From NCBI GenBank assembly GCA_039096935.1, contig JBBPEE010000035.1:124001-188000 (forward strand): a stretch of 64,000 bases of DNA. Reading direction: 5' to 3'. Below are positions 11,348-57,062 of the stretch, one piece after another (the first letter of the stretch is position 1; every line of letters begins with the position of its first letter). Origin of the DNA: Blastocystis sp. ATCC 50177/Nand II. Its lineage: Eukaryota. Position numbers and translations under genes: made by a program. The notes beneath the pieces were generated by a model. That model worked only from the letters and a program-made list of their open reading frames with translations. It searched no databases and had not been told where the DNA came from.

Positions 11348-11360
11348 AACAAACACAGTA
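11348..11360 (-). terminator. Poly(A) signal TGTTTGTT with incomplete stop T
   Basis: Minus strand AGC GTG T|ACTG TGTTTGTT. Confidence 0.7.
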
Positions 11361-12322
11361 CACGCTATTGTACAACTCAATATCACTATGCTCTCTAAAG
11401 TACACGATATCGTCAACTCGACGACTGATGGAGTATGTCATGGCCTGAAAAAACATCAAATCTACCCATAACCCACAGTGCAAGCACGCACCCTCCTGAG
11501 AAAGGCGTCTGAAATGGAGAAGCCACTGCACAAGGAAATACAGAAGGGCGCCGTCGCAGAAGAACGTTATCAGTGCAACAACGTCAAATTTCCGGTGGAG
11601 AAACACGATCACGGCGAGAACCGTCGAGAGGGCGATCATGACGATTACGATGGAGAGATAGAGTTTGTTCCGCGACGACAGGCTCACGACGCCGATGATC
11701 ATGGCCAGGCAGTTGAAGAGGATGGATGGATGGAACCGCTGGAGATTCGCCGAAATGATGTTCAGAATCTACATGTCACGCAGCGAAAAAGGCCAAACAA
11801 AAGTGATGACGAAGAGTCCCCAAATGATGTACTCTCGCTGGAGGTAGGGGAGATACTCTCGCGTGATCATCTCCCACTTCTTCAGATTATCCCATGACAG
11901 AATCTATCCTAAAGGCAATGCACGACTCCCTACGCTTCCGGGGTTCATCCTACGACTCATCCACACCTCCAACACTTACAATGGATTTCGGCGACTGATG
12001 ATGATCCTATGATAATAACGAGTACAGAAAGAACCTACGGCGGAGGACTCTGACCATTCGCGGAAGACACTTCCGGAATGCTGATTCCCGAAGCACAGTG
12101 CTCAAGACCGATGGGAACAATAGAGGCAGAGGAATCGTGAGGACTGACTCCAGAAGTGGCTCCCTCTTCTTGAACGGACCCAGAAATGGCAGAAAAGGGT
12201 TTGTACACACTACACTGAATAAAGAGAGTTACCGTAACTCGAAAAGCCCCTCGACCTGATGAAGACTAACGGTGACACAACGCAAAAGAGCCTACAGATA
12301 CCCGTAGTTGGTATAAGAATAC
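11360..12322 (-). CDS. Hypothetical multi-pass membrane protein; stop predicted to be completed by poly(A)
   Basis: Hydrophobic exons (YIIWGLFVITF; LYLSIVIVMIALSTVLAVIVFLH; VVALITFFCDGALLYFLVQWLL); 5' exons uncertain; codon-initial T11360 then 4 nt then TGTTTGTT (11355-11348). Confidence 0.5.
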
Positions 12323-12430
12323 ATCAGGGTTAGAGCGATGCCGTTTTGTGGATTGAGAACAGCAGGATCCAAATAAAGAGCCGATTTTGGCGACTCGTTT
12401 TGCCCTTTCATAACTCTTCAGGGAATTGGA

Positions 12431-12878
12431 ATGTCTGCGAGAGCGTTCGGTAGTCTGCCGCGGCAATTCGCCAAGAGTTGCCGTTTCCAAGCGTAATCCT
12501 CTTTCCCCGTGATGACCCCCAGATCGGGTATTCCCAAGATGGCTTCGAGGCGGTGGGGGAAGACGGAGACGTACTTCGATTTCATGAAGAAAGTGCGCAA
12601 GCCCGTGGTTTCCCTCCCTCGCTCCTTTGACGAAATGGTGGTGCGCTGCCGCACAAGCGAGGTGAGGGCGCGGAGAGGGAAATAACGAGTAGATGCAGCA
12701 TCTTCAGATTGGAGCCCTGTACATGTTCTCCTACGTGTCCAAGGAGCTGCTGGAGGAGATGGAGTCGTTAAAGGATATGCTAAGCGAGGAGGAGATGACC
12801 ACCGAGGAGGACGTTACGTAGTGCTTGAAAGGGTGGGTCACGAGTAGGACAGTAACAACCACCACCGTTAGAACGTGA
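12431..12878 (+). CDS. Small hypothetical protein with presequence-like N-terminus (multi-exon)
   Basis: MSARAFGSLPRQFAKSCRFQ..., GC3-rich exons separated by ~30-nt introns; TGTTTGTT at 12950-12957. Confidence 0.45.
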
Positions 12879-12989
12879 AATGCGCCATTGGGATCATTCC
12901 GGGTTTGCTCCTTCCGTATAGTTCATTCGTGGGTTGTTTTCACTTGGGCTGTTTGTTTTTCACAGTTTCAGTGAATTGGCGTTCATGGC

Positions 12990-13996
12990 ATGTGGGTGCG
13001 GCAGAATGTCCTCTTTCGGCGTTTTGGGACGCAGGTCGTGCTGAAGAAGGCGCTTGGACAGCATCTGCTGAAGGATGAGAATGTGCTGCGAAAACTCGTG
13101 AAGGAGGCGAAAATATCCATTTCTAACATATTGAAGCTTGCTTAATGGGAGAACATTCCAGAAAAGGGCACCGTATTTGAGATTGGACCGGGTTCCGGTC
13201 AACTCACGAAATACCTGCTGCAACAGTGTGACCATGTGGTTTGCATTCCCATATTCATTTCCGATATAGGTGGCGTTGGAAAAGGACCGTGACATGGTGG
13301 CTGTCCTTCAGCAGCGATTTCAACGGGAGATCCAAGATTCAAAACTCACCCTTCTTGAAGGCGATGTGCTAAAGGACCCACTTCCCGCATTTGACGTGTG
13401 TGTGGCCAATATTCCCTATTATGTAACATCATATCCTCCCTCTAAACTGTAGGTGTCTTCACAACTTATCCAGCGCCTCATTCTCTCGCGCCATTTCACC
13501 GAAGAGTATCTCTTCCTCGTTCAAAAGGAGTTCTGTGACAAGCTTATCATGGAGCACGATTTCACGCCATTGAATCACGCATAGCACACGTGCTTCCAAT
13601 CACGACTCCACCTTCCTCACGGTGCTCGTACAGTCCTACTTTAGGGCCTCGAAGTGCTTCGATGTGTCGAGAACTTGTTTCGTTCCTCCACCCAAAGTGA
13701 TTGTCGTCTCCTCCGTGAATTGCAGGTGACGTCGTCAGTCCTCTCCCTCTCGCCACTCTATACAAGGGAGGGAGAAGACGCGGTATCGACAAAACCGGAG
13801 GAGTATGCGCAATTCCTCCGAACCCTCTTCCGAACGAAGAACAAGAGTTTCGTGAAGGTGCTTCAAACGGCATACGGAAAGTGCGCAGACTGCAACATCG
13901 ATCCTGTGGAAACCACCATCCGCATTGAATCCTAGAAGCGCAAAGTGTACCAACTCTCGAGCGAAGAGTACAAGGCCCTCTTCAACTCGTACTTCT
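12990..13996 (+). CDS. rRNA adenine dimethylase (KsgA/DIM1 family), probably organellar; U12-type intron; poly(A)-completed stop
   Basis: MWVRQNVLFRRFGTQVVLKKALGQHLL, VFEIGPGSGQLT, ALEKDRDM, GDVLK, VANIPY, FVPPPK, ending LSSEEYKALFNSYF. Confidence 0.85.
13113..13154 (+). other. U12-type (minor spliceosome) AT-AC intron
   Basis: 5' ATATCCATTT, branch-like TGCTTAAT, 3' AC; contains an in-frame TAA; removal gives EAK|IPEKGTVFEIGPG. Confidence 0.8.
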
Positions 13997-14020
13997 CGCT
14001 TCTTTATTCCAAACACCAAA
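13996..14020. terminator. Overlapping degenerate poly(A) signals of two convergent stop-less genes
   Basis: Plus: TTC T|CGCT TCTTTATT (14001-14008); minus: TTA T|TTGG TGTTTGGA (14015-14008). Confidence 0.6.
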
Positions 14021-14990
14021 TAAGACAGAAGCAATTAACTCCGAATCGGCCTTTCTGCGCGCGGCCCAGAGCATCTTCTTGCCCGCATTCCTCTCCACCT
14101 TCTTTCCCTCCTCCGTCGAATGGTACACCGCATCAATCACCGGATCGTCCTTCTGCTGCTTATGCCGCACCACCATGCCTACCAGCTCCTCTTCCGTCAA
14201 CAGTTCGAACCCGGGATGCTCCTGCAGCTGGTCGTGATGCCAGTTGGCCAAATCCTCCACATCGGTGATGGTGTAGAGAATGCCACCGGGGCGCAGGTAG
14301 TACATGTACTCGGACAGCAGCACTTGGCTACGAGATGACAACCACAATCAACACCCTTCCTGATGATGCGTCGACGATGATTCTTTTCCTTGAAATGGGG
14401 GTCGGGGAAGCAGAAGAACATCTTGGAGAGCTGGCCCTTCCGGATGTAGTTGGACAGGTACTTCATGGCGTTCGTTCGCATCACAGACGCGTTCTGGTAC
14501 TTTCCGGGGTTCTCCTCGCGTAAATTCTTGATGCGCAGGTCAACGTACTCCGTCACCTTCATGCGGATCTCCAAACCGAGAATGAGCTCGTCCGGAAGGA
14601 TGGTGCTAAGTGCCACTGCATATGATGAGACGGAAAAAGAGAAGTACCCGTCAAGCCTCCATAGCCGCAGCCCACATCGAGAATACTCACTTGCCTGCCT
14701 CTGACGCGAAAAGGAGACTCTTACTTTGTTGCAGCTGCATTTTGCTCTTGAGGGGTCAATTCTACGGGTGACGATAGCCAGCCCAGCGCAAACTCGAGTC
14801 GAAGAAAGCGGGGTAGTGCGTCGACCAATCCATGTCATCTGGGGTTTGTGGACTACGCAGTAAGCCGCCTTCTGAACGCTGACTAAGTGAAGGTGTCATT
14901 GTGAGAGAGCGGGTTGCAGTGGGCTCTCTGACGGAAGTAGCGCTTCAGGGGACGGTGGTTTTCCTTCACCTCTTTCTCGGTGGGCTCCAT
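14020..14990 (-). CDS. TRM8: tRNA (guanine-N7)-methyltransferase TRM8/METTL1 (multi-exon)
   Basis: KRYFRQRAHCNPLSHND, ILGLEIRMKVTEYV, RTNAMKYL, FFCFPDPHFKEKNHRRRII, YTITDVEDL, STEEGKKVERN. Confidence 0.92.
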
Positions 14991-19241: not shown

Positions 19242-19254
19242 AACAAACAGAATA
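19242..19254 (-). terminator. Poly(A) signal TGTTTGTT with incomplete stop T
   Basis: Minus strand ACC CTG T|ATTC TGTTTGTT. Confidence 0.8.
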
Positions 19255-19895
19255 CAGGGTGCTAACGATTTTTGACACGTGGATGGGCTTGTCATAGGGC
19301 GGAATGATGGTGGACTTTGTTGTGTCCCGCGGCAGCGCTCTGCGCATATCTAGTCGTCAAGACGCACCGCCGATGCAACCGTAGGCATCCGTTCCGGTTC
19401 CATAGTACTCAAGAATGTGTCTATATACGGAGTACTGCAGTTTCTTGTAGAGGGACACTGCAAGCGCATTATCCACGCGGACGAACAGATCCACAAAGAA
19501 CGCGTTATCTCTATGCGGGAAGCGAATCCACAATCAGCGTACACAAGCTCGGACACGTCCTCGATGTACTTCATGAAGCGCTGACTGTAACCGATACGGC
19601 GGTATTCCGGAGCAATGGTGAGCACAGAAACGTGTCCTCTCCAATCCTTCTTTTCGGGAAGAAGGTCGCCCTCCACCTTTCCCACGCCAATGCCGACAAC
19701 CTCTCCGTTCGGCGCCTCCTCCGCAAAGAACAGGTCTGACCACTTCGTCATGTACGTCAGGTAGAAATCCATCGTGAACTACGCTTCATTCCCTCGTGCT
19801 CCCCCCACAGTGTTCGTCCACTTGTCCAGGTTGTAGTTCGCAACCGTGAACAAATCGTCCGTCGTGAAGAGTCTCATGAAAGAATGAATGGGCAT
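19254..19895 (-). CDS. NAA20: N-terminal acetyltransferase B catalytic subunit; poly(A)-completed stop
   Basis: MRLFTTDDLF..NLDKWTNT, FYLTYMTKW, GKVEG, WRGHVSVLTIAPEYRRIG, EDAY|DMRRALPRD. Confidence 0.9.
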
Positions 19896-20637: not shown

Positions 20638-20651
20638 AACAAACACATGCA
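20638..20651 (-). terminator. Poly(A) signal TGTTTGTT with incomplete stop TG
   Basis: Minus strand TGT CAT TG|CATG TGTTTGTT. Confidence 0.75.
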
Positions 20652-21870
20652 ATGACAGTAGGACAGCATCTCCGACGCAGTGGGGCGCTTCGAGGGGTCG
20701 TAACAGAAGATGGCTTCCAACATGGATCGATACTCCCTGGTCGTCACAGCCTCTCTTTGGAGCATACGGAGACACGTCGCGCGGAAGGAGAGTGCTTAGG
20801 GGAATTCGGGCGATGGGCTGGATAGAGGACAAGACTAGAAGGGAGCCGTTTACCTTACTCCATACCTTCTCTATTGCTGCGAGGAACCTGCATTTGGGCG
20901 AGATCCTCCTCGGAAGGGGTTCCTAGGACTAGGAGTCATTCGGTTGCCTTGTCGGTACCGTTTATGATGCTTAGGAGCTGGTCCGCATCCGAATCGAGAG
21001 CGATGAAGAGGGGCGTTCCAACGAGGATTTCGGCGATGACTCTTTGTGATTCCCTTTCCCTCCGCGTACCGCAACCCAGAGACCAGACGTCAATGGCGTA
21101 TCCATAGCGTGTGGCTCCCATGAGCAACTCAGGCGCCCTGCGCATGAGTCCGGAATTAAGTGTGCACCGATAAAAGCGCGAAGTGACGAGCGGTGTGCTG
21201 CGATGGTTCTCGATCGAGCCGACGATCTGTTTGCTGCACCCAAAGTCGCAGAGTTTCGCTTGCATGGACGGTTTTTCCAGCAGGAGAATGTTGGACGGCT
21301 TGATGTCGCGGTGCATGATGTGAAGGGAGTGCAGATAGGCCACTTCTGGAAGTGAGCATGGGCAACATCATCAACCATTGATGATTTGAGGAATGAGGAT
21401 GTCCTTCGGTAGGGAGAGGTTGTGAAGAATGTGATGGGAGAGCGTGGACCCCACATACTCGAGCACCTGTGAGTGAGCGTCACCCCGTTCGACCACGATA
21501 TTGTTCCACACACTCGTCCCCTTCAGTCCTCGTCTCTCTGTGTAGAACTGCTCTTCCCATTACTCCTCCTCATCGAGTGAACCCTTCATGTTGACAAAGT
21601 ACTGTCTGGTTTTGTCGTTGCAGCCCGCTAGAAGCGCCTTGTTGATAGTGCTCTCTCGAGATGCCGCAATCACGCCCCCTACAGCCTGTACGGGAAAAGC
21701 GTCCACTACCCACAATGTCGTCCCGATTCACTCGGATCTGCTTCAGCGCGTACGCCTTTCCATCCGATTTGGCGCGAACGAGAAACACACTCCCAACTAC
21801 ATGTTCCAAACAATCACAAAAGCCAACACGTTCCACTCCCCAGCTTCCGTTCCACTCGGTACACTTCCAT
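20650..21870 (-). CDS. CMGC kinase (GSK3/CDK-like); poly(A)-completed TGA stop
   Basis: MEVYRVERKLGSGT|FGSV, YALK, HRDIKPSN, KLCDFG, SRFYR|APEL, DVWSLG, YDPSKRPTASEML. Confidence 0.85.
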
Positions 21871-25368: not shown

Positions 25369-26611
25369 ATGGTGCAACCAGTCCCCACGGAAGGCTATGA
25401 CGGTAGGGAGGAGGCAGCAACGCTCTCACTCCGTAGAAGGATGGGAAACCCCGCCAACTGTGCCCTCTTCCAGTCAGCATGTCTCTTCTCTTCGTTGCTG
25501 TCATGGATAGGAGCACGGCGAAGAACAATCGGAGGAAGGGACCTCGAGAGGAAGCGACCTGTGCAGGCGCGCGGGAAAGTGCGTGAGATGCGCCTTTATG
25601 AGCTCCGTTTGCGCGTTTCTGTGTATCGTCATGTTTGCTCTGTACAGTCTGTTCCAAATCGCAAATTATCCCGTACTCGCACTTCGCTTCATCGTTATTC
25701 CTAGGCCAGTGGCGTAAGAACCGTTCAGGATGAGAACGGCAACGTGTACATGGAAGATGACGGAGATGGGGTGGGGCTGTCTTTCCGCATTGATCCATAG
25801 TTTGATCTGTTTGATCTGTTCGGCATGAGAGAGCACATCCAGGAAGTGCCCATTGACTTGTCTCTGGAGCAAATCTATGCTGGTTATTCGACAGAAGTTC
25901 ATGACGAAATTCCATTTTACGTGTAGTATCCGCTGAGTGTGAATCGAGCGTGTCCCAGCTGCGGAGGCCAGGGAGGCCACACGCACCACTGCCCCTACTG
26001 CGGTGGCTCAGGGATGATACGAACCCCGCGCGGAATGGCCTAGTTTGTTAGTCCTTTTGGAATTCACGATCAGCTGTCCCCACTGCCAGGGCCACGGTGT
26101 CATCATGTCGGGAGTCTGCGAGATGTGCCACGGAACGGGAGTGATCGCGAAGGACTTCTCCGTCCCCATCGCCATTCCGCCCGGCGCTCCGGACAAGTGG
26201 AGCCACGTGTACAAGCTGAACGATGGCAGCAAAGTGCGGTTCCGCGTTCATCAGCTGCCTCATTCTTCTTTTGAACGACAAGACGCTGATTTGGTGATGC
26301 ACATTCATCTCTCTTTGAAGGAGGTGGGAATGCGGGGAGAGTGTGAGGAATAGGCCTTGCTGGGAACGACAATACCGATTACCACCATCGACAAGCAGGA
26401 ACTACAGGTTGCCATTCCTCCGTGCTCCGTGCAGCCGTTTGGGACCATTCGGAAGGCGGGGTACGGGTTACCTCGGTATGAGAAGAATGCAGTGAATGGG
26501 ATTACCAATTTGTTCAAGGGAAAGCGAGGGGATCTGCTGCTTATCGTGGATATCGATTTCCCGGATGCGTTGGATGATGATCAGCGTGGTGCGATTCAGA
26601 CCTTGTTTTAA
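25369..26611 (+). CDS. DnaJ-like protein (zinc finger plus C-terminal domain) with an N-terminal TM segment and no visible J domain
   Basis: Four CxxCxGxG repeats, LSLEQIYAG, FERQDADL, LSLKE|ALLG, RGDLLLIVDIDFP; TAA 26609-26611, TGTTTGTT 26617-26624. Confidence 0.75.
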
Positions 26612-26763
26612 TGTCCTGTTTGTTTCAAATTGCACTGTCAATCAGGGCCACTACACAGTTTCACCGGGTAAAGTTGCTAGCACTGGACTTCGCTGACTGA
26701 AGTTTGACAGCTGACCCTAACTGACTTTTTCAGTCAATTTTGTTCTGGAACAATTAACAACTG

Positions 26764-37179: not shown

Positions 37180-37191
37180 CTCGTGAGTGTC

Positions 37192-37203
37192 AACAAACCC
37201 GCA

Positions 37204-37205
<2 letters not shown>
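37192..37205 (-). terminator. Poly(A) signal GGTTTGTT with incomplete stop TA
   Basis: Minus strand CAG TCA TA|TGCG GGTTTGTT. Confidence 0.75.
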
Positions 37206-41239
<4,034 letters not shown>

Positions 41240-41329
41240 GGGAATCGCAGTTTCTGCCTGCCAGCCTCTTTTTGGCGGGGTGCTTGAACGAAGTCGGGCG
41301 TTTCGTTCTCGCTTTCGTATCAAAAAACG

Positions 41330-41985: not shown

Positions 41986-42060
41986 GTTGTATCATGTTGT
42001 TCCGTGGTTGTTGAACACACTCTGAGTGACGGTGGGAGGAATCACTCTCCTGTTCTGAGC

Positions 42061-43201
42061 ATGAAGCGCAGTATGGAAATGAATCGAAGATTGATGGATA
42101 GAACGGGAGGGCAGTCATAATGGTGAAGAGTATCGGCATTGGAGGGTTGGAGTGATTCCGAAGAGATGCATCAAAGCGAAATGCTGAATCAACAAGGGAT
42201 AAGGATGTCATCCGTTCTGTACTGGAAAACAAGGGGAATCAGGAATAGGCGCTCCAATTCCTCTATTCGAAGAAACACATTGTAGTCATAATGGGTGCGG
42301 GAGTGAGTGTGGATGCTGGAATTCCTGACTTCCGATCGAAGGTATTCAGCGTTCTTTGCCTCTGAGCATCAGAATGGCTTCTTTGACCGGATCAAGCATA
42401 CACTCCCTCCGCACTATTCTCCTGAAGACGTTTTCGACATTTCCGTCTTCAAGGAGAATCCCTCTCTCTTTTACTCCTGCATCCAGTCCCTTTCATTAAG
42501 TGAGTCTGCCATTTTCTAGTTTAGGATAGATGAGTTTCGCCCTTCCGTGACCCATCTGTGGCTGAAGGCCATGCAAGCCAAGTTCCACAACATCCAACAC
42601 ATATTCACACAGAACATCGACGGACTGGAGAGTTGCATCGACTGCCCTATCACCAAACTTCATGGTTCTCTCCATCAGGGTCATTGTCTCCGGTGTGGGT
42701 ATTCCCTCTTCATCTCATTCACATACAGAAAGAGCATCGACTCTTCTCTCCTCCAGCAGGCCTATCGTTCTGGAAACGTGCTGCATTGCCCATGTGGGGG
42801 TGTAGTGAAACCCGACATTGTATTCTACAACGAGTGCGTGGACAGTACGTCCATGGAGCGGATGAAGCAAGCATCTGTAGTCTGCGACTTGCTTCTCATT
42901 TTGGGCACATCACTGTCGACACATCCAGTTTCGGAGTGCGTTCGGCTTTTTGACCACTGCGATCTGTTGGTGCTGAATCAATCGAACATTCAAATCCCCG
43001 AGCGAGGTGATGGTGTGAAGACCGTTCAGATCCTTGGCTCCTTCCGGGAGCTGTTTGGAGAAGATGGTGACGCGCTGACGGAGCCGGAGCCTCTGAAAGA
43101 CAAGTGCGTGTATGTATTATCCGTTGCCATTCCGAAACGGTGTAACCCTTAGAGCGGCATCCTCCAGAAGAGAAAGTACTTGAACTCCTGGACAATCGTG
43201 T
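42061..43201 (+). CDS. Sir2-family NAD-dependent deacylase (multi-exon)
   Basis: GAGVSVDAGIPDFRS, FTQNIDGLE, HGS, CxxC...CPC, VKPDIVF, GTSL; last exon predicted to end T|TGTG TGTTTGTT. Confidence 0.9.
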
Positions 43202-43213
43202 TGTGTGTTTGTT
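43201..43213 (+). terminator. Poly(A) signal TGTTTGTT with incomplete stop T (if intron 43114-43152 is spliced)
   Basis: ATC GTG T|TGTG TGTTTGTT. Confidence 0.55.
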
Positions 43214-43231
43214 TCCTCACAACTGCCGCTC

Positions 43232-44258
43232 ATGATCCCCAGAATCGGAGAGGTGATGTTGAATAAACTCATTTCTGCCTTTCTGTACTTGCCTCCACGA
43301 TGCACCTACTGCACAAACGATCCCCTTTTTCGAGGCAGTTTCTTTGAAATGTGAATGGCTCGAATCCTCCCTTCATCGTAGTAAGGACTCGGCAGGGAAC
43401 TGCATCCCATGCGTGTATGTGAAGGCGTCGAGCCAATCGCGCTATACTGTGCTGTACAGCCATGCAAATGCAGAGGACATTGGAAATCTGTTTCTCTTCC
43501 ACTCCATTTCGATGACGAGTAGAATGGGCTTCTTCCTGTGGATGTCGAAGCATCTGTTTGTAGATGTGATCGGATACGACTATCCGGGATATGGACTGTG
43601 TGGGTATGCTGTATAAAATGAAATTGACGTGCAGAGGGACTCCCAACGAGAAATCGGTCCAAGCCTGCGCCTGCACCGTTCTAAACTACATGATCGACAC
43701 CATGGGGATTGGGAACAACCAAATCATTCTGTATCTTCTCCATTCGCCTCTGAATTCTAGTTACGGCCATTCATTAGGAAGCGCCGTAAGTGCCTACTTG
43801 GCTGTCTACGCGTCAAAGACGCGTTCCAGAGGAGTGGCAGGCGTCGTTCTCCAAGTCCTTCCCTCGCCTTCCCCTCATCTCCAGAGTTGCTTCATGTCCA
43901 TCTACCGACTGGTCTTCGACTTGCGATTCAGCGCAAAGCGCGACCTCTACGAGACCGTGGACATCGTATTCCTTTCATCTCCGCTTCTCCGTAGATCAAG
44001 GACATCAGCAGCCCCGTCACGTTCATCCACGGCATGTGCGACTGCGTCGTGCCCTTGTCCCATCCGAAGGCGCTCTTCACGCTCGTTCCGGAGGATCTGC
44101 GGTACAAGTGTCTGTTTGTGGTGGGAGTGGGTTGTACACGTCAGACGTAGCCCGCCGCCGGTCATAACAACATCGAGCTGTTTTGCACGCCCCGATCCCT
44201 GTTCGCAAACCACCTGCTTAATTTCCTTGTGGCGATGGAGCACGCGCCTGATTTTTAG
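43232..44258 (+). CDS. Alpha/beta hydrolase, ABHD17/ABHD13-like (multi-exon)
   Basis: TVLYSHANAEDIG, YDYPGYG, YGHSLGS nucleophile elbow, FIHGMCDCVVP, GHNNIE. Confidence 0.85.
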
Positions 44259-44584
44259 ACCTTTGTTAGCCTACGGGAAGAGCAGGGGCAGAGCCTTCAG
44301 TGCCTAGTGGGTGTTTAGGAACTTAGTTGCTTTGGATTGTTTGTTAACCGCCTCAGTCAACCACTCTTTATGACCCGTTCCCTTCACACGGTTTCGTTTC
44401 TGGATAGAGCTGGAAAAATTCACTGTTCCTGCTTTTACGATCACAAGTGGGTCTAATAAAGCCAGAAACCGACTGGTATTTCGTTCTCAGTTTATTAGAC
44501 TATAACAAGTCTTATTTCCTTTATCGACTGTTGTTTTGGTAGATTCACTTCTGTGCCTTTACAAGCTAGAATCCGATACAAAGA

Positions 44585-47500
44585 ATGCCTAAGAATGGGA
44601 TTGGAGCGTATACCCTGCTTTACATGCGTAACGAATAGCGGAAAGAAGCCCCGCATGCGATCTGACCTGATGAACACCGGGGGCCTCGTAATTGCCACTT
44701 TCAACAGAGGTGCTTTTCTGTGTAATTCCTTATGGATAGACAGACCGATCCCACGCAGTAACGAGATCGAGGTGGACTCCTGGGTCTCCCACGTTCCGAT
44801 GGCCGTTTTTGTTGTTGTAATGGTTTCAAGTATAGTTTTGCAAGACACCGAAACGTCCTCGTGGATTGGGAAGACGGGCGAAGAGCAATAGGGAGAATAC
44901 CGCCTCCATTAAGGTGATTCCTGGAACCGAGTCGGTAACCCAGGACTTACATCTACCGACCCTGGAGAACCTGAGTTCTTTTGTGGGCCACTCGCTCCTT
45001 GTACTGATGGGTAGGAGCTTCCTGCGTTGGAAGAATACTACCCTCTGTGGTGCAAGGGCGTCGTGAGCACGATCAACCATCGTATCAACAACACGTCCTC
45101 ACGCGCGTGCAATCTCAGCAATGTGGTCGTGTACTGCAACCGTATTATCGAGGCTGCGGGCATCATTGCGATGCAGGACCTGCCCGCTGCGAAATCGCTG
45201 GATATCGGTGAATCGTTGATGGAGGTCGTTTTCCAGGAGGTATTCGTCTTTTGCTCTTCCCACACCTAGCTCTCGATGATCCAATACGAGATCCAGCGCA
45301 ACTGCTCCGAAGACGACATTGCCCAATTGGCCTCCTTCCTCGAGTACCCCACTCCATTCCATTCCACCCTAGCGACCGCGCCAAGACCCTCTCCGAGCTG
45401 CGCGACACGCTGCACAAGAAGTACAACATCGTGCTGGACGCCAACTGGATGGCGGCGGCTCTGGGCTCCGACGGTGCGTTCACCCTTCCCCTCTCACGCC
45501 TAGTGAAGGACCGCTACGAAGTCTTCCTCTTCCAGTGCGCCTGGCTGCTGCTGGGCCTCGTGATACTCAAGCGCGAGGCCAAGCCCCGTGGCCTCTTCTC
45601 CCCCTTCTCACACACAGGCGCCGAGCTGCTGCGTGACGTGTCGTGGTGCTTCCAGTACGCGTTCCTCCTGCACCGCGGATTCGGCCGTGCGCGCGCCTAT
45701 CTGGGCGGCGTGTACGCGATGAAGGAGAGCTTCCTGGACTCGGTGTACTACAACATGAGCAGCATGGTGAGCGACCTGCCGTACGAGACGCGCGAGTCGC
45801 TGGAGTACGTGTTCGGGCTGTGCTCGCAGCAGCAGCACGCCTTGGAGCAGGAGGTGCGCGGCCGCAGCGCGGAGGAGCAGGACGCGGTCTGCGTGCGGCT
45901 GTTCGGCCTGCGCTTCCTGAACGTGATCCGCTGTCTGTGGACGAACGTGCGCGCGGCGGCGGTGGGTGAGGCATAGATCAATCTGGACGTGGTGCCGCAG
46001 TACGCCGTGCGACTGTCCTTCTCGATGCGCCAGCTGCTGGCGCGGTGGGAGAAGGACGAGCTGAAGTATATCCTGAGACGCCGTGCGCTGGGTTCCTTAA
46101 CGCCAGTCAACGGCTGCATCCTGCAGCGTATGATGACGGTGCTGCTGATGGTGATCTCCGTCCTGCTCAACGACCCCCAGCGCAAGAAGGAGGACATGAC
46201 CGAGCCGCACGTGATCGTCGTTTCCAACCGCGACACGCGTGCGGCTCTGCGTGCGGTGTGACGCCCAGAGAACATCCGCGTGTACATCGCCGTGCAGGTG
46301 CTCTATCAGTTCCTCTCGACGCTCTGCGTGTGCTACTGCAGCAGCCCCGTGCACGCCAAGGACATCCTGCCCGCCATCGTGTTGGGTCTGCACTTCCTCG
46401 TGTTGAACAATTCCCTCCTCCTGATGAGCTACGAGCCCAGCGAGACCATGGACAAGCCCGCGATGGCCTTCGCCGCCGCCTGCGCGCCCTTCTTCTCGCT
46501 GTTCCGCGAGGCCACCGTGGTGGAGTGCGCGGCGACGGTGGACGAGGCGGACCTCTCTGCGGTGAACGAGGAGTACTTTGACTGCGCGGGCGTGGCCATT
46601 CTGGGCGACATTCTGGTGAGCGAATCGGTGGGGTGTGAGTCGTAGTTGTCTGCACTGCCGACACGGGAAATGACGAGCCATGCCAGTATGGACTCCGTGA
46701 AGAGCTCTGTGCGTGCTTCGTTCATCACGTACGCGCTGAGCATCCTGATGGGCTACGGGCTGCTGGAGGACCGCAACGGCGAGATCCGCGGCGTGGGCGA
46801 GGCCGCCAGTCTGGAGGAGATCGCGGGCGGCGACGAGGGTCTGGAGCTGGGCGACGTGGCGGCGCCCGCGGGCCAGGACCCCGTGTTCCTCGTGCAGCGA
46901 GAGGCGGCCTCGTCGGATGAGTCGGACGAGTCGGATGAGGGAGAGGCGGCGAAGGAGCCTGTGAAGGAGCCTGTGAAGGAGCCTGTGAAGGAGCCTGCGA
47001 AGGAAGCGGTGGGCAAGCCGAGACGTGTGGTGATGTCGGACTCGGACTCCGATTCGGACTCCGATTCGGACTCCGAGGCGGATGAGAGAGCGGCGAAGGG
47101 AGAGAAGCTGACGAAGGAGCAGAAGATCAAGAAGGAGGCGCGGTACCTGCTGAAGCGCCAGAGGAAGAACGGCCGCTCGGTGGCGTACCTGGGCGCGAGG
47201 ATCGACCCGCGCTGGCTGATCGTGATCGACGGGTACAACGTGGCACGCAACCTGAACAAGGACCGCTTCGACGCGAAGTGCATTCAGATGGCAGTGGAGT
47301 ACTTCGAGAAGCTGGGCTGCCGCGCGTACGCGGTCACGCACGACTTCTTGGAGAGCACGAACAAGAAGGGAACGATGATCATCACCAAGAAGGACCAGGA
47401 GCTGCTGAAGGCAATGAGACAGAAGAAGCAGGTGTACGTGGTGCCGGGCCAGGCCTACGATGACTCGTATGTCGTGAAGACGGCGATGGAGGAAAATGGG

Positions 47501-47674
47501 CTGATCGTGACGAACGACAACTACAAGGACTTCAGCGACAACAAGCACTTCACCGTGGACATGGACCTGCTGCGCAGCCGACTGATCTCCTTCAGCTTCG
47601 TGGGCGACAAGTTCCGCATGAACCCGGAGTTCGAGTGCCCCACCTACCCCGACGACTTTACCGACGACGAGTGA
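44585..47674 (+). CDS. EST1/SMG6-like protein with a C-terminal Regnase-type NYN nuclease (Smg6L-like, multi-exon)
   Basis: EST1-like segment FQYAFLLHRGFGRARAYLG...LDSVYYNMSSMVSDLPYETRESLEYVF; NYN motifs VIDGYNVA, YDDSYVV, GLIVTNDNYKD, RLISFSFVGDKF; 5' exons less certain. Confidence 0.75.
46068..46106 (+). other. Candidate U12-type AT-AG intron (39 nt)
   Basis: ATATCCT 5' splice site and perfect TTCCTTAAC branch site (46093-46101); the AG at 46105-46106 keeps the GC3-rich frame. Confidence 0.65.
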
Positions 47675-48060
47675 AGCGGTTCATGTGTACATCACGATAC
47701 TACTCTATGACGGATTGTGCGTGAAGACTGCAGTGTAGTATGTGTATACACTGTCTGTTTGTTGACTACTGCCTTTTGGAGATGTATGTGTCTCTCGACT
47801 TGGGAATTCAAATTGGGTGATGCCTCTGGTCTTCCCAGTTCATTCGTACCAGAAACGCTCCAATCGATGGAATGAATGCAACTCGGCTCTATGCTTTCCA
47901 ATAAACAAAAAATGCGTCTGTACACACGAATCGCAGCAAATTCTATTCCCATTCTCGGAAGATGGTTTGTGTAAAAGACAACGCGGCAATAGTTTGGACC
48001 TGTACGGTGGGACGACATAAACGAGCCACTATTCTTTGTCTCAAAAAAACGCTATCTAGA

Positions 48061-48792
48061 ATGAACCAGTTCTTTGTTTTTGCTACTATCCTTGCCGTTG
48101 CGCTCTGTGGATGTGCGTTCTGCGGTTTGTTGCTCACGGTGTAGCCTGCGGTACTTACACCAACGAGTGCGGTTCTTCGTTCGTGAGCAAGTACAGTGGC
48201 AGAAGCACTGCCTATGTTAGCTGCAGCCTGAACGGTTATGTGAGCGGTGTGGAGATCAAGCAGAACGTGTACCCCCAGAGCGGATGCAAGGGCGACTCCA
48301 TGTTCATCTTCAGAAACACCTATAAGACCACCAAGAAGGCTGATGCCACCGACAAGCGTATGAGCCGTGTTCAGATAGTGACTCCTAGTGAACGCTCAGT
48401 ATGACGCTCTGCTCGAGAAGATGACGGTGAAGAGCAACAACGTGAACGCCATCAAGGAGCTCTATCTTACTTGCTCCCCCGAGATGAAGGAGGGCAAGAC
48501 CTACAACATCCAGGACATCTCCTGCACGCTCCTGACGGTCGACCTGTTCGCCGGCTGGAAGTCCTCTGTCGGCAAGACCTCCGACATGTCCATCAAGTTC
48601 GAGGGAAAGAAGATGACCATGGTGGGCAGCTTCTCGGGTGAGCTGAACAAGTCCAGCAGCTTCTGGGGCTGCTTCCAGGTGTGGAGTCTGATTCTCCTCA
48701 TCGTGGTTGTGATTATCGTGATTGTGGTCATTGTGCTCGTTTCTATGAAGTGCTGCTGCTCCAAGAAACTGCCCAAGAAGAGCAAGAAGTAA
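48061..48792 (+). CDS. Type I membrane/surface protein of unknown family (3 exons)
   Basis: Signal peptide MNQFFVFATILAVALCG, Cys-containing ectodomain, TM LILLIVVVIIVIVVIVLV, cytosolic KCCCSKKLPKKSKK*. Confidence 0.75.
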
Positions 48793-48829
48793 ATGTGCTT
48801 CTTGATCGCTTTGTTTCACACGCCTGAGC

Positions 48830-48842
48830 AACAAACAGGCCA
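48830..48842 (-). terminator. Poly(A) signal TGTTTGTT with incomplete stop T
   Basis: Minus strand TAC CAG T|GGCC TGTTTGTT. Confidence 0.8.
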
Positions 48843-50871
48843 CTGGTACATGGCATCAATCTCCTTCGCGTAGTGCTCCTGCACCACGGCTCTCCTCAGC
48901 TTCATCGTGGCCGTCAGCTCGCCGCGACCGATCGTAAACTCCTCCGGCAGAATGCACCACTTGCGAATCTGCTGGGCGCGGCTCACCGCCACCTCGTTGT
49001 ACTTCTCCACTACGCCGTCGATGTAGGCCTTCACCTTCTCGTCGGTCATCGCCTGCTCGATCGTCTCCGCGGTCGATCCCATCGTCTTCAGGAATCGCTT
49101 CACGTCGGGCGCCAGTCTGTGTGTGGACTCTCCGTCGGGCGTCATTTCGCAGCGAATGCAGATGAGGAGGGAGATAAACTTGCGCTTGTCGCCAATCGCG
49201 ACGCAGGAGCTGAAAATGGAGCTGAGCTCCATCACCTTGTTCTCGATGATCACCGGGGAGATGTTCTCGCCTCCGGCCGTCACGATCAGCTCCTTGATTC
49301 GGCCGGTCACCTTCAGGAAGCCGTCGCTGTCCTTCACGCCCTGATCGCCCGTGTGGATCCAGCCCTCGCTGTCCAGCGTGCGCAGCGTGTCCTGCGGCAG
49401 CTTCAGGTAGCCCATCATGGTGTTGCGGCCCTTGTACATGATTTCGTTGTTCTGGGGGTCCACACGGATCTCGATTCCGGGCATGGGAAGACCGACGGTG
49501 CCGATCTACGCATCATCCGTGTTGGACGTCACTACCTTCCACCGCTGCTCCACGGGCGAGCAGGTGGCGACGGGCGCCGTTGCCTCGCTCTGGCCGAGGA
49601 GGTCATAAATGGGCATGTCAAACGCGGCGAAGAAGCGCAGTGTCTCCTCCGTCACCGGCGCAGCACTCACGACGAGCGTGCGGCACCTACGCGTAATCTC
49701 CTTCCCTCGCGCCCACTCGTCGAGTCCCAGGCCCTGGCGCACCTTGTCGAACACGAGCTTCTTCGCCAGTCCGTACAGCCAGGGCTTCTTGAAGGTGCAG
49801 CCGTACTGGCGCGTCATCGCCGTGCGGTATCCCACGCGGCGCGCCCACGCGGCGATGCGCTTCTTCAGCCCGGAGTTCTTGGCGCCGGTGGCCACCACGC
49901 CGTCCATCATCTTCTCGTAGACGCGCGGCACGGCCACGAACACCGTGGGCTTGGCCTTCTTCATGGTGGCGGTCAGCGTGCCGCGCAGCGCGTCGGGCGC
50001 CGCCATGTAGACGGTAATGGGGTGGCAGAGGAAGATCATCGCGTCGACGTACTGCGCCGCCACGTGGTTGAGCGGCAGGTAGCCCACGACGCGCTCGTTG
50101 CCCTGCAGGCCGATGGTGGAGACGATGGCGCGCGCGTTGTAGGTGCAGGCGTCGTGCGAGCACATCACACCCTTCGGGTCGCCGGTGGTGCCGGAGGTGT
50201 AGATGAGCGTGGCGCAGCTGCCCGGCTGCGTGCCGGCGATCGCCGCGTCCACCTGCGCGTCGGGCACCGAAGCACCCAGCTTCAAAAAGTCCTCCCACTT
50301 GTAGAGGCGCGCGAAGGCGTCGTCCTTCACAGCGGGAAGCTCCTCGTCCGCCCAGTACACCACGATGGCCTTCAGCAGCGGCAGGCTCTCGCGGATGGAC
50401 AGGATCTTGGTGAGCTGCTTGCCCGACTGGCACACGCACACCACCGCCTCCGAGTGCTTCAGCACGTAGCAGCAGGCCAGCTCGTTGTTGGTCGTGTAGA
50501 TGCCCGCCGTCACGCCGTCCGCCATCCACGTGCCGTGCAGCGCGAAGTGGTACTCGGGAGAGTTGAATCCGATGATGCCCACGGCATCTTTGGGATGGAA
50601 GCCAATGTGCAGCAGCGCCTTGGAAAAGGCGAGAGCATTGTTGTAGTAGTCAGTATACGAATACACGACGTCGTCCTTGCTGACGATGGCGGGGAAGGAT
50701 CCCCTCTCTTTGCAACAACGCTTGAATTCCTACGGCTGAAAGGCATATTGGGTAGCGTACTTTGGGGAGTGTGGTCGGTTCCGGGTTGAAGGAGCAGTTT
50801 GTGTTGCGGCGGATTTCAATCAAGTCCGTTTTGTTCACGGCTCTGTACTTGTCTGGAAGCGTCGTTTCCAT
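48842..50871 (-). CDS. Long-chain acyl-CoA synthetase (ACSBG/bubblegum-like); poly(A)-completed stop
   Basis: LIYTSGTTGDPKGVMCSHD, YLPLNHVAAQ, AVPRVYEK, GWIHTGD, GRIKELIVTAGGENI, GELTATMKLRR, EIDAMY. Confidence 0.93.
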
Positions 50872-51284
50872 TTCCACGGCGTTTGCAAATTGTTTTGTGG
50901 TGTGTCCCTCCCCGCGTGCACGACGTTGCCTCTTACGTTGCTCGAAAATCGGGACCAGACGGACCGAAATGTCCCAAAGGCTTCTTCATCGGAAGAGGAG
51001 CCACCTCTTCCCCAATCCCCCTTTGTTTCCACCTTCTCGTCACTGGAATAACCACATACACAATAGCAACAATGCGGTGAATCATGATGAAAACAACACA
51101 TTAACCACCTTCATGCGCATACACTCATGGAGGAGAAAGGAACAAAGACAGGGAACAGTTCAATGCACTCCGGAAATAGTGCCGATTTTTGCACACTCTT
51201 TGTTGCGTTCTTTCTCTACAAGCAGTCAGTAGAAACCGTTTTTCGTAATTCCATCGTCTCTTTTCATGTGATACGTAGAGAGTC

Positions 51285-52987
<1,703 letters not shown>

Positions 52988-53079
52988 TGTATAATACTAC
53001 GCTTGTTTGTTTTGCTACGGGCGAGCTGTTTCCCTTTGATGGGGTCAGTTCTCTTCGTTTGGCCCCTCTCATTATTCCG

Positions 53080-55687
53080 ATGTTCCTTCCTCTCCTATCG
53101 CTTTTACTCCTGTCGCTGTGTCATTCCGCTATCGTGGAAAGAGTATGGGTTCGTCCCGCATCGACAATCGGACAGGACACGCCGCTGTCCTCTACGACTT
53201 TGCAGTCCATCTCCATATCGTCGTTGCAGCAGGCTCTGGATATTGGTATACAGTTCTGTCCGCCGAGCTCAAATGCGCGGTTTTCCTCGCATCAAAACAT
53301 AATCAGTAGATTCACGATCAAGTTCACTGTGAAGGGGATAAACCACGAGTCCGTCCACTTCATGCACCACCTCCAGTCCTCTTCAACGGAGTGCTTGCCC
53401 ATCAGCAGCGCGGTCTTCTCGGACGGAGAAAGCTTCTGGTACGCGACGCAGGGCGTGTACTCCATCATCATCTCCATCCACGATTCCTCCCCGTACGCCA
53501 TCTTCTCCACCTCTTACTCCCTCGCCGTCATCCGTCCCGCCTCCATCCAGTTCCAGCTGTCCTCCCCGCTCTCCGCCTCCTGCACCCTTCCCCTCTCCTC
53601 CCTCGCTAACACTCCCTTCACTCTTCTTCTTCCCTCTTCCATCACCCCCACCGCCGTCCGCTGGGTCCTCGACGGCCGCGAAGCCGCCTCCACCACCCAC
53701 ACGTGGCCTCTCTCCCTCCTCCTCACCTCTAGGCACTCCTTTCACCCCTCCCTGACCGAAGGCACCCACTCCCTCGTCGTCCTTCTCCACACCGAACCCT
53801 ACGGCTTCCCCGAGTACGCCCAAGCCCTCTCCTTCACCGCCACCTCCACACAGGCTCCTACCAAGGCTCCTACCAAGGCTCCTACCAAGGCTCCTACCAA
53901 GGCTCCCACGCAGCCCCCAGTGACCCCCACAATTCCACCGCACGTGGCGCCCACAGTGCCGCCGAAGGCCGAAGAGAGTCGCAGCTACTGCGGCGACGGC
54001 GACTGCTCCGCGGACGAGTCGTGTGCCTCCTGCCCGCTGGACTGCGGCCTGTGCTCCTCCTACACCTGCTCGCCGCAGCACTGCGCCTCGCCCGCCTGCC
54101 GCTGCGCCGCCACGACGCACCCTCTGGGCAGTGCCGCCGCCACGCCGCAGTTCGTGACGATCACATGGGACGACGCACAGACACCCACCACCTTCTCCGC
54201 CATGATGGACGTGGCGCGAACCACCTCCGTGGGGTCAACACGGGCGTTTCATCGTAGGCACGTGATGCGTTCGGGTGTCGTCCGAAGATGACCTTCTTCA
54301 CGCAGACAAACGACAACCAGTACCAGTTCACCAAACAGCTGTACCTGGAGGGCCACGAGGTGGCGTTGCACTCCGTCCACCACAACACCGGCCCGCACAC
54401 CACCAAGTCCGAGTGGGAGCGCGAGATCGTGAAGGCGCGCGAGTACATCGCCCGGCTGTGTTGGCGTCTGCATCGGCTCTGAGCAGTAGCCGGCATTCCC
54501 GAGGCCGCCATCACCGGCTTCCGCGCGCCGGACCTGAAGTACAACGACGCCATGCTGGAGGTGCTGGCGGAGCGGGGCTTCGCCTACGACAGCAGCGTGC
54601 CCTACGAGCCCACCGCGCCCGAGCTGTTGTTCCCCTACACGCTGGACTTCGGCGCCGTCGAGCAGCACTGGCGCCAGCGTGGCATCATCGCGCCGCACGC
54701 GGGGCTGTGGGAGGTGCCGCTGCCCGCGCTGGTGGACGGTGCCTTCGCCGCGGTGACTGTGCAGGATCCGCCCGGCTCGCGCGCGGAGATCGTGGAGCTG
54801 CTGAAGAGCAATTTCGGTTCCGACGTGCGGAGTGGATGAAGCGCAGATCTGCACTACGAGCACGGCCGCGCGCCCTTCGTGATCGGACTGACGGCGTCGT
54901 GGCTGCTGCAGGACGAGGCGCAGCGGCGCGCGGCGCTGGAGGTGGCGATGGGTTGGTGGTGTGAAGTGTAGGAGGTGCTGCAATATGTGGCGGGAAAGAG
55001 CGGCGTGGTGTTCGCCTCCATGGCGGAGTTGGTGGACTACATGAAGGCGCCGGTGTCACTGGAGCAGCTGCAGCAGGCGCCGCGGCAGTGCGTGTCCGCT
55101 ACGCCCACGTGAGGGTGTGTGAGGGAGCTGAGGGTTAGTCCTGTGGAGGCGCTGTGTGGCGGACAGACCATCAACACCTGCTACTACTCCTCCGTGGTCC
55201 TTCGCTTTGCGCGTCATGCGTAGCGCAACTTCCAGACGTGCGAGCAGTGTCCGGACTACTATCCCGGAGAAGAGCCGTCATCATCCACGATCGGCACCAT
55301 TGCGCCAGAGAACCAGTGGCAGGGCTTGTTCAGCACGGCGAACGAGCAGCGGTGGGACGGCGGGTTCTGCATGTCGGTAACCATCGGGAACAAGGGCATG
55401 CGGCCCGCGTCCTTCTTCGAGGTGGGATTCAGAGTTGCGAATTCCCAGTAGATTACCTTCACAACGAAAAACTGCCAACTCACCACGCTGTGGGGGTTGA
55501 AGATCAAATCGACGGCGCAAGGCAAGTACACCGTGATTCCGGATCGGAATGTGTTGATAAAGCCGAACAAGGTGGGATCCGTGAGGGGCAGTGACGAGCA
55601 GGAGTACTCTCTCGGCGGTATCTGTGCGAAGACGAGTCAGAAGTATTCCATTTCAGGGACGGTTGTTCTGTATGCGGACGCTCCGTG
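53080..55687 (+). CDS. Secreted chitin-deacetylase-like (CE4) protein with a C-terminal CBM2-like domain; poly(A)-completed TGA
   Basis: Signal peptide MFLPLLSLLLLSLCHS; TKAP repeat; Cys-rich module; PQFVTITWDDA, HEVALHSVHH, GFRAPDL, YDSS, PYTLD, LWEVP; WDGGFCMSVTIGNKG. Confidence 0.8.
53851..53910 (+). repeat. 12-nt tandem repeat encoding a (TKAP)n mucin-like linker
   Basis: accaaggctcct repeated about 5 times. Confidence 0.9.
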
Positions 55688-55699
55688 TGTGTGTTTGTT
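55686..55699 (+). terminator. Poly(A) signal TGTTTGTT with incomplete stop TG
   Basis: GCT CCG TG|TGTG TGTTTGTT. Confidence 0.7.
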
Positions 55700-55882
55700 G
55701 GTGTGAAACGCACTCACTTCGTTTTCATACACAACAACTCCAATTTCCCCTTCTCAATGCATTATATGTCGGGTGCACTTCAAGTGGGAAGCAGAGGAAC
55801 GGAATCCCTTCCCTTCAGCCCATCTTGATCCCTTTCACGGCGGATACCCTTTCCGGGATGCACTCATTTCTGTGGTTCTGCT

Positions 55883-57050
55883 ATGATGGACAAGTTCGTG
55901 AAAACGCTAAAGACAACCAAACGACGGATCAGCCAGCAGCTGAAGGTGGCCACCGGCCAGGCGGAGATGACGAGAGACGCAGAGTTCGATCTGGCCTATC
56001 GCGACTTTGCTGATCTGGAGAGCAACCTGAAGTTGCTCAGTTCGCAGTGCGTATCCATCATCCACAACGTGGACAGCTGGTGCGACACGAACCGCAAGTT
56101 GGCGGACGAGTTGCTGCACTTCACGATGAAGAGCGAGGTGGACACGGAAGACATGACGGAGTACCGAGAAGCGATCAACAACCTGCACATCGCTCTGCAG
56201 GCGGAGTACGACTACACGCGGCGCGCCATCATCTGCGTTCTGCGTTCCCACATCATCGTGCGCATCGACGGGCTGCTGAAGCAGGAGTTTGCGGCGGTGG
56301 AGAAGGTGGTGAAGACACGCAAGAACATCCTGACGGACTACGACTCGCATCGCGCGAAGTGCAGCCTGTACGAGCGGCGCGGCGACTCGAGCAACGCGGA
56401 CCGGTTCCGGGTGAAGATGGAGCACGACAGCGAGATGCTGCGCGAGCACAGCGAGTACCTGCGGAAGCGGTTCGCGGAGCTGGTGGCGGTGGGCGGCGCG
56501 CTGCTGCGGCAGGAGACGGCGACGCTGGTGGCGTGCGAGATGTACCTGCTGCAGTGCCAGAACGAGGCGATGGCGACGATCGCGAGCGGCTTCTCCGGGT
56601 CGTCGGTGCAGCAGGTGCTGGAGGGGCTGGCGGCGCTGGCGGAGCGCATCAAGGACGGCGAGGACGTGGAGCGTGAGTACGTGCCGCCCGCGCTGGCGCT
56701 GCCCGCCCTCAGCTGCGCCGAGCCGCCCGTGGTGACCGACTACCCCGCCGTGTCACGTCTGCAGGCGAGCTCACAATCGAGTCAGGTGGGTTCTCAAACG
56801 GATAAGGTGGGTTTTCAAACGGATAAGGCGAACGCTCAGCCCATGACAGTTCAGCAACAAAAGGGGACGAGTGAGAGGGGGCCGCAGATGGTGAGGGCGC
56901 TGTACTCGCTGGACACGGCGGAGGAGGGGGAGCTGGCGTTCAAGGAGGGCGACTGCATCGAGGTGCTTCGTGAGGATCCGAGCGGATGGTGGGAGGGCAG
57001 ACTGAACGGGAAGACGGGTCGATTTCCGTGCAACTACACGCAGGCTTGTT
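55883..57050 (+). CDS. BAR + SH3 domain protein (amphiphysin/endophilin-like), intronless; poly(A)-completed stop
   Basis: N-BAR-like TRDAEFD...KTRKNILTDYDSHR; SH3 VRALYS...ELAFKEGD...GWWEG...GRFPCNY. Confidence 0.9.
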
Positions 57051-57062
57051 TGGCTGTTTGTT
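57050..57062 (+). terminator. Poly(A) signal TGTTTGTT with incomplete stop T
   Basis: GCT TGT T|TGGC TGTTTGTT. Confidence 0.8.

What the first reader, a model, noticed from the sequence alone, without database searches (positions are those of the whole stretch)
11348..57062. About ten genes lack a genomic stop codon; poly(A) addition 4 nt upstream of TGTTTGTT would create UAA or UGA
Seen: in ten genes a codon-initial T, TA or TG is followed by exactly 4 nt and a TGTTTGTT-like octamer, in most cases where family homology ends. Cases: T11360(-), T13996(+), T14020(-), T19254(-), TG20651-20650(-), TA37205-37204(-), T43201(+), T48842(-), TG55686-55687(+), T57050(+). Read-through gives tails such as VCCS/CLL, sometimes running into the neighbouring gene. 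Genes with real stops carry the same octamer just downstream (e.g. 3091, 22772, 26617, 53004), marking it as the 3'-processing signal. Established: poly(A)-completed stops tied to TGTTTGTT are described for Blastocystis nuclear genes, so the system is not new. Inference: roughly a quarter of the genes here use it, their mRNAs have no 3' UTR, and cleavage must be single-base precise.
Basis: partly seen in the sequence, partly recalled or inferred. Interest (0 to 1): 0.92.

Follow-up and report, generated by a model that had tools for sequence, protein, structure and literature searches.

The report
Blastocystis stops completed by poly(A) tail
Ten genes in this stretch of the gut protist Blastocystis have no stop codon where their proteins should end and likely get it from the first A's of the poly(A) tail (seen directly in RNA for one gene), a mechanism already published for this organism, so the finding is real but not new.

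Summary
All 10 listed T/TA/TG are codon-initial in spliced models and lie 4 nt before a TGTTTGTT motif: 7 exact, 1 with one mismatch, 2 with two. The exact motif occurs 22 times against 1.6 expected. The window is Blastocystis ST1: two genes match NandII proteins whose annotated C-termini end at the predicted residue. RNA contigs were laid on 5 of 10 sites. One shows a 24-nt tail directly after T48842; four stop 1-25 nt short of the site. The other five have no RNA evidence. Related ACSBG-like loci have either a bare T plus motif or a genomic TAG/TGA at the same codon. The rate, 10 of 38 hand-listed gene ends, equals the 26% published for ST1. This is the system of Klimes 2014 and Gentekaki 2017. 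One correction: single-base precision is needed at only 4 of 10 sites. One detail of note: two stop-less genes meet tail to tail across 23 nt holding only two overlapping signals. The scan noted similar stops on other genomes, none on this one. Already known; interest low.

The parts
11348..12324 (-). Uncharacterised 251-aa protein gene (NandII AV274_5367); T11360, spacer, exact motif 11355-11348
   Evidence: P0008 (NandII) and P0013 (JDR) both end at the predicted last residue; no RNA evidence
12990..14008 (+). rRNA adenine dimethylase (RrnaAD) gene; T13996, spacer, two-mismatch motif 14001-14008
   Evidence: P0003 (OAO12990.1, NandII) ends at the predicted last residue; no RNA evidence
13997..14019 (.). 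23-nt gap between two convergent stop-less genes: 4-nt spacer, plus-strand motif, minus-strand motif (sharing base 14008), 4-nt spacer
   Evidence: sequence
14008..14990 (-). tRNA (guanine-N7) methyltransferase gene; T14020, spacer, two-mismatch motif 14015-14008
   Evidence: strain DL protein P0018 ends at the same aligned residue; no RNA evidence
19242..19877 (-). N-alpha-acetyltransferase 20 (NatB catalytic) gene; T19254, exact motif 19249-19242
   Evidence: model 177 aa against 178 aa for the PDB NAA20 chain; no RNA evidence
20638..21763 (-). Protein kinase gene (5' end uncertain); TG 20651-20650, exact motif 20645-20638
   Evidence: no homologue reached the C-terminus; no RNA evidence; weakest-tested case
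37192..41239 (-). SMC3 gene; TA 37205-37204, one-mismatch motif 37199-37192
   Evidence: RNA contig X1 stops at 37230
42061..43213 (+). Sir2-family gene (5' end uncertain); T43201, exact motif 43206-43213
   Evidence: depth arithmetic puts the X1 contig end near 43200 and favours a 30-nt last intron
48830..50871 (-). AMP-binding (ACSBG-like acyl-CoA synthetase, label recalled) gene; T48842, exact motif 48837-48830
   Evidence: 24-nt tail directly after 48842 in a spliced X2 contig; related loci; Pfam
53080..55699 (+). Secreted-type protein gene with a polysaccharide-deacetylase-like region (label recalled; no Pfam hit); TG 55686-55687, exact motif 55692-55699
   Evidence: X3 contig stops at 55661 and no X3 cover is needed for 55662-55747
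55883..57062 (+). Intronless BAR-SH3 gene; T57050, exact motif 57055-57062
   Evidence: SH3 ends at residue 387 of 389; X1 and X3 contigs stop at 57044 and 57038
57133..57140 (+). Second exact motif 38 nt beyond the read-through stop of the BAR-SH3 gene; possible distal poly(A) site
   Evidence: use not shown

Best explanation
These ten Blastocystis ST1 nuclear genes have no stop codon before a TGTTTGTT-type signal, and their mRNAs are likely cut 4 nt upstream of it and polyadenylated so that the first one or two A's complete UAA or UGA (shown in RNA for one gene, inferred for nine). Shown here: the geometry at 10 of 10 sites, the tail at T48842, the same motif behind ordinary genes. Taken from papers: the motif fixes the poly(A) site 4 nt upstream, and a reporter whose motif and two upstream T's were mutated lost expression 324-fold. 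Inferred, not tested: a CstF-64-like reader of the motif (the hypothesis of Klimes 2014), loss of the genomic stop by relaxed selection once cleavage became precise, and normal termination on the made stop.
For: Geometry and statistics. A spliced X2 contig of 1984 nt begins with 24 T's and lies on the window from 48842; an X3 contig stops at 48843. Contigs of the other four genes examined stop 1-25 nt short of the site, and none of the listed pieces crosses a motif. NandII proteins end at the predicted residue for 11360 and 13996; a strain DL protein ends at the aligned residue for 14020. Among 18 Blastocystis-like ACSBG loci: 3 repeat the window's end, 3 keep T + 4 nt + exact motif at the same codon with an unrelated 152-aa read-through, 6 have a genomic TAG or TGA at that codon, 3 likely paralogue loci have T + motif ten codons later where a fourth has TAG, and 2 have a genomic stop two codons later. 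Only 1 of 10 genes has a motif with at most one mismatch within 100 nt after its read-through stop, whereas 23 of 28 genes with genomic stops have one within 115 nt.
Against: A tail was seen at 1 site only, in one contig of one run whose RNA status is a guess by the index (its introns are spliced out). Only 24 of 360 loose-end rows were shown, so tails at other sites could be neither seen nor excluded. Contig ends are weak evidence of transcript ends. Five sites have no RNA evidence. The public annotations were made with knowledge of this rule, so their C-termini are not fully independent. Two sites have two-mismatch motifs, which are common by chance (607 sites with at most two mismatches in the window). 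The BAR-SH3 contigs differ from the window by about 2%, so they may come from another allele or copy, and that gene has a distal exact motif. One search finds possible hidden 29-33-nt introns across the motif for 20651 and 43201.
Confidence: 0.95

Rival explanations
1. Some genes read through the motif to the downstream genomic stop and use a distal poly(A) site, alone or as a second isoform; the BAR-SH3 gene is the best candidate (14 extra residues, exact motif at 57133).
For: Exact distal motif 38 nt after the read-through stop of the 57050 gene. Tails are short (6-14 aa) in five genes, so homology cannot exclude them.
Against: Tail at T48842; X1 and X3 BAR-SH3 contigs stop at 57044 and 57038. 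9 of 10 genes have no good motif after the read-through stop. Read-through length at the ACSBG-like gene is 8 aa in some loci and 152 aa in others. Klimes 2014 found almost no alternative 3' ends. The confidence given is for at least one of the ten genes doing this as its main form.
Confidence: 0.12
2. A hidden short terminal intron removes the motif and leads to a genomic stop in one or two genes (20651, 43201), or the last intron of the Sir2 gene is called wrongly.
For: One search lists GT..YAG stretches of 29-33 nt across the motif for 20651 (two) and 43201 (one). By my reading, a 43-nt last intron or retention of 43123-43152 would give the Sir2 gene a genomic stop.
Against: X1 depth in two bins fits three 30-nt introns and an end near 43200. 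Both sites have an exact motif at the canonical distance. Such terminal introns were annotation artefacts in ST7. No such intron is possible in the other 8 of 10.
Confidence: 0.06
3. The missing stops are assembly errors or recent stop-loss mutations in this strain.
For: None found.
Against: Three other assemblies carry the same stop-less ACSBG-like end (L001, L005, L008), and the fixed 4-nt geometry at ten sites is not what errors give.
Confidence: 0.01

Closest known systems
Polyadenylation-created termination codons in Blastocystis nuclear genes (Klimes et al. 2014, PMC4159000; Gentekaki et al. 2017, PMC5608401; PMC12129017)
   Same: Same genus and subtype, same TGTTTGTT motif 4 nt downstream with up to two mismatches, same UAA/UGA outcome, same share of genes (10 of 38 here; 26% in ST1, 15% in ST7), same motif density (1 per 2909 nt here; 1 per 2751-3097 nt published).
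   Different: Nothing in kind. UGA-type ends are 2 of 10 here against 13 of 372 in ST7, a small sample. The 23-nt tail-to-tail pair, the one-base tolerance and the codon-level swap between made and genomic stops were not in the passages I read.
Poly(A)-completed UAA stops of mammalian, dinoflagellate and Diplonema mitochondrial mRNAs (as described in PMC4159000)
   Same: The tail supplies one or two A's of the stop; no 3' UTR.
   Different: Organellar; ends are not set by a downstream GU-rich nuclear signal (in mammals by tRNA punctuation, recalled).
PAY* Tyr-to-stop conversion and mouse thymidylate synthase UAG-to-UAA (as described in PMC4159000)
   Same: Cleavage inside a codon then polyadenylation makes UAA; three sites here are Tyr codons in the genome (11360, 19254, 37205).
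   Different: Those are alternative isoforms of genes that also have a genomic stop and full-length product; here the made stop appears to be the normal end.

Membership tests
Blastocystis poly(A)-created termination codons | Nuclear, intron-bearing gene of a human- or mammal-associated Blastocystis subtype | tested here: met
   Best hits are NandII and JDR (ST1) proteins at 95-100%; GC 55.5%; 29-34-nt GT..AG introns in RNA contigs
Blastocystis poly(A)-created termination codons | No in-frame genomic stop before the poly(A) site | tested here: met
   10 of 10 in spliced models
Blastocystis poly(A)-created termination codons | In-frame T, TA or TG as the last transcribed bases | tested here: met
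   10 of 10; frame supported from outside the model for 8 of 10
Blastocystis poly(A)-created termination codons | TGTTTGTT with at most two mismatches exactly 4 nt downstream | tested here: met
   7 exact, 1 with one mismatch, 2 with two
Blastocystis poly(A)-created termination codons | Poly(A) tail begins at the predicted base (site 48842) | tested here: met
   24-nt tail directly after 48842 in X2
Blastocystis poly(A)-created termination codons | Poly(A) tail begins at the predicted base (sites 37205, 43201, 55686, 57050) | tested here: inconclusive
   Contigs stop 1-25 nt short; no tail among the 24 of 360 loose-end rows shown
Blastocystis poly(A)-created termination codons | Poly(A) tail begins at the predicted base (sites 11360, 13996, 14020, 19254, 20651) | not tested
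   No RNA result for these five; annotated C-termini agree for three
Blastocystis poly(A)-created termination codons | Same motif downstream of genes with ordinary stops | tested here: met
   14 exact, 9 one-mismatch, 5 two-mismatch only, of 28 hand-listed genes; offsets 8-84 nt from the stop for the first two classes
Blastocystis poly(A)-created termination codons | No alternative 3' end with a genomic stop | tested here: inconclusive
   No good distal motif in 9 of 10; exact distal motif for 57050
Blastocystis poly(A)-created termination codons | Protein actually terminates at the made stop | not testable with these tools
   Needs mass spectrometry or ribosome profiling
PAY* alternative Tyr-to-stop conversion | A main full-length isoform ends at a genomic stop and the made stop truncates a minor one | tested here: not met
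   For 48842 the listed contigs of three runs end at or just before the made stop; family homology ends there for SMC3, SH3 and RrnaAD

The most novel reading that the evidence does not exclude
The stop and the 3' signal behave as an interchangeable, minimal module. Two stop-less genes (RrnaAD and tRNA methyltransferase) end tail to tail across 23 nt made only of two spacers and two signals that share a base and each carry two mismatches, close to the smallest possible intergenic space. Single genes swap between a genomic stop and a poly(A)-made stop at the same codon across Blastocystis lineages. Six of ten made stops tolerate a one-base slip, which may reflect selection against non-stop mRNA.
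Probability: 0.5. Interest if true: 0.35.

Novelty: already known. Interest (0 to 1): 0.15.

Why it matters
As a mechanism it adds nothing to work from 2014-2025. It matters in practice for annotation: read-through calls (for example P0002, P0015) and 'partial' labels mis-state Blastocystis C-termini. The side observations give cheap tests of open points named in those papers, such as how exact the cut must be, whether stop loss is one-way, and what reads the motif. The 23-nt convergent pair would be a compact reporter.

Tried and rejected
No whole genome is held, so the genome-wide frame test was not run. Exact look-up of the intronless BAR-SH3 protein, cut at the made stop or read through, with either of two start codons: 0 of 4 in the collection, uninformative. 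PDB search with the NAA20 last exon gave no real hit; one search was probably out of frame and is disregarded. The kinase search returned fragments and prokaryote-style calls that do not reach the C-terminus. Pfam gave no family for 6 of 14 pieces and 2 of 5, among them the 11360 gene and the 55686 gene. Of 79 loci, 45 that reach the C-terminus were read; 34 that stop earlier were dropped; 18 were treated as Blastocystis-like by identity and motif density (22 exact motifs in 56.8 kb against 3 in 183.1 kb for the other 61), with no subtype assigned. The read-through peptide of P0002 resembles the window's 13996 read-through; I rejected this as evidence for read-through because that stretch is the antisense of the conserved methyltransferase gene. 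The leftmost gene was excluded from the count because it runs off the window. Supplements of the other papers were not read.

Full report
Observation. All ten sites are in the sequence as described. Each codon-initial T, TA or TG is followed by 4 nt and an octamer: exact TGTTTGTT at 11360, 19254, 20651, 43201, 48842, 55686 and 57050; one mismatch at 37205; two at 13996 and 14020. The exact motif occurs 22 times in the window against 1.57 expected (maximum 7 in 100 dinucleotide shuffles). Sites with up to two mismatches number 607, so the two weak cases need support beyond geometry.

Reading frame. A small spliced-alignment script built models for the ten genes, mostly with 29-32-nt introns. 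The models were forced to end in the proposed frame, and at least four in-frame introns were missed by the script and recognised later from RNA gaps or homologues. Outside support for the terminal frame exists for eight genes: identical or aligned homologue ends (11360, 13996, 14020), Pfam or PDB matches in the last exon (37205, 48842, 57050), and RNA gap or depth arithmetic (43201, 55686). For 19254 and 20651 it rests on the model. Read-through would add 6-90 residues, and in four genes it would run antisense into a neighbour's coding sequence.

Organism. The best protein hits are Blastocystis NandII and JDR proteins at 95-100% identity, both ST1 by PMC12129017 (passages). GC is 55.5% against 54.5-55.0% for ST1. 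The 251-aa model of the 11360 gene reads the same as AV274_5367. I call the window ST1, NandII-like; the strain is not established.

Share of genes. I listed 38 gene ends that lie inside the window, assigning the frames of the ordinary genes by eye. Ten lack a stop before the motif (26%) and 28 have a genomic stop. Of those 28, 14 have an exact motif downstream, 9 a one-mismatch motif and 5 only a two-mismatch motif. All 7 exact motifs that precede the first in-frame stop have an in-frame T or TG at the predicted place. With a per-site chance of 0.07-0.13 this is about 1e-8 to 7e-7.

RNA. Ten runs were listed and four were laid on 37150-57149, which covers five of the ten sites. All are assembled contigs, not raw reads. 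In X2 a spliced 1984-nt contig starts with 24 T's and lies on the window from 48842, which is a poly(A) tail directly after the predicted T on the minus strand, giving UAA. An X3 contig stops at 48843 and the X1 contig at 48861. For the other four sites no tail was among the 24 of 360 loose-end rows shown. Contigs stop at 37230 (X1), 55661 (X3), 57044 (X1) and 57038 (X3). For the Sir2 gene, X1 depth implies 48 nt of cover from 43153, an end near 43200, and 90 nt skipped in the bin before, which fits three 30-nt introns (this assumes one contig contributes). X3 depth in 55159-55825 is fully explained without cover of 55662-55747. X1 and X2 belong to one study. The other five sites have no RNA evidence in this report.

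Annotated ends. OAO12990.1 (NandII) ends at the last residue predicted for 13996, and AV274_5367 and its JDR counterpart end at the one predicted for 11360. A strain DL methyltransferase ends at the residue aligned with the end predicted for 14020; a second DL copy ends one residue earlier, and an unnamed relative ends one residue later or reads on with a W-S-V-C-C tail typical of the motif. Other 'partial' entries stop 3-15 residues short; no named Blastocystis entry runs past the site. These annotations were made knowing the rule, so they are consistent rather than independent.

Comparison across lineages. The last exon of the 48842 gene recovered 79 loci; 18 look like Blastocystis. Three repeat the window's end. 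Three at 91% identity keep T + 4 nt + exact motif at the same codon, with a different spacer and an unrelated 152-residue read-through. Four at about 78% have a genomic TAG at that codon and the motif further down. Two at 52% have a genomic TGA there with a one-mismatch motif placed so that a cut would turn it into UAA. Three likely paralogue loci have T + motif ten codons later, where a fourth has TAG. Two have a genomic stop two codons later. The protein end is conserved and the read-through is not. Direction of change was not inferred, since no tree was built.

Mechanism. Shown here: geometry, one tail, shared motif. From papers: the motif lies 4 nt downstream of 96% of 2,419 poly(A) sites in ST7, and 372 genes had made stops, 359 UAA and 13 UGA (PMC4159000; parts 1-2 of 3 read, covering the main text); 1,693 ST1 genes, 26% (PMC5608401, passages); mutation of the motif and two upstream T's cut reporter expression 324-fold (PMC6395660, passages); tortoise isolates lack both motif and stop loss (PMC12129017, passages). 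Inferred: a CstF-64-like reader and loss of stops by relaxed selection, both hypotheses of those papers and untested here.

Corrections and side points. A one-base shift of the cut still yields a stop at 6 of 10 sites; only 13996, 14020, 43201 and 57050 need exact cleavage. The genes ending at 13996 and 14020 are separated by 23 nt: spacer, motif, motif, spacer, with base 14008 shared. The read-through peptide of an unnamed relative (P0002) has the same spacing, which hints that the layout is conserved; its DNA was not seen. The BAR-SH3 gene has a second exact motif after its read-through stop, and its RNA contigs differ from the window by about 2% while other X1 pieces listed match it exactly, so that case is less secure.

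Novelty. Four paper searches found the system described in 2014, 2017, 2019 and 2025. I did not see the tail-to-tail pair, the one-base tolerance or the codon-level swaps in the passages read; overlapping 3' ends resolved by the motif are discussed for ST4, and unread supplements may hold more. PMC11529991 (passages) mentions Blastocystis once and adds nothing here. The scan's notes hold similar made-stop candidates in other genomes and nothing for this one; I did not test them. Verdict: real, correctly interpreted, already known; interest 0.15.

Noticed in passing
window 55796-57044 (+): X1 differs from the window at 24 places in the BAR-SH3 gene while other long X1 pieces listed have none, and several variants are shared by all four runs: the window may hold a divergent allele or a second copy.
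   Followed up: partly
window 33952-33964 (+): A galactokinase-like gene (label recalled) has a genomic TAG with a two-mismatch motif 5 nt from its first base, so the cut could turn UAG into UAA.
   Followed up: no
window 37177-37238: The plus-strand neighbour of SMC3 has its first one-mismatch motif at 37231, so its 3' UTR would overlap the last SMC3 codons antisense by about 22 nt.
   Followed up: no
window 26609-26624 (+) and 23937-23921 (-): Genes with genomic stops and predicted 3' UTRs of only 1 and 2 nt, apparent intermediates to stop loss.
   Followed up: no
window 30475-30547 (+): tRNA-Lys(CTT) gene between two protein genes.
   Followed up: no
window 4115-7243 (-): Long intronless reading frame with an AT-rich, repetitive hydrophobic C-terminal half.
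   Followed up: no
window 30732-32208 (-): Intronless gene that looks like aspartate ammonia-lyase (label recalled); intronless enzymes in this genus can be bacterial transfers, not tested.
   Followed up: no
L010-L012 and L015, just after the match: A likely paralogue of the 48842 gene shows the same swap between T + motif and a genomic TAG at one codon.
   Followed up: partly
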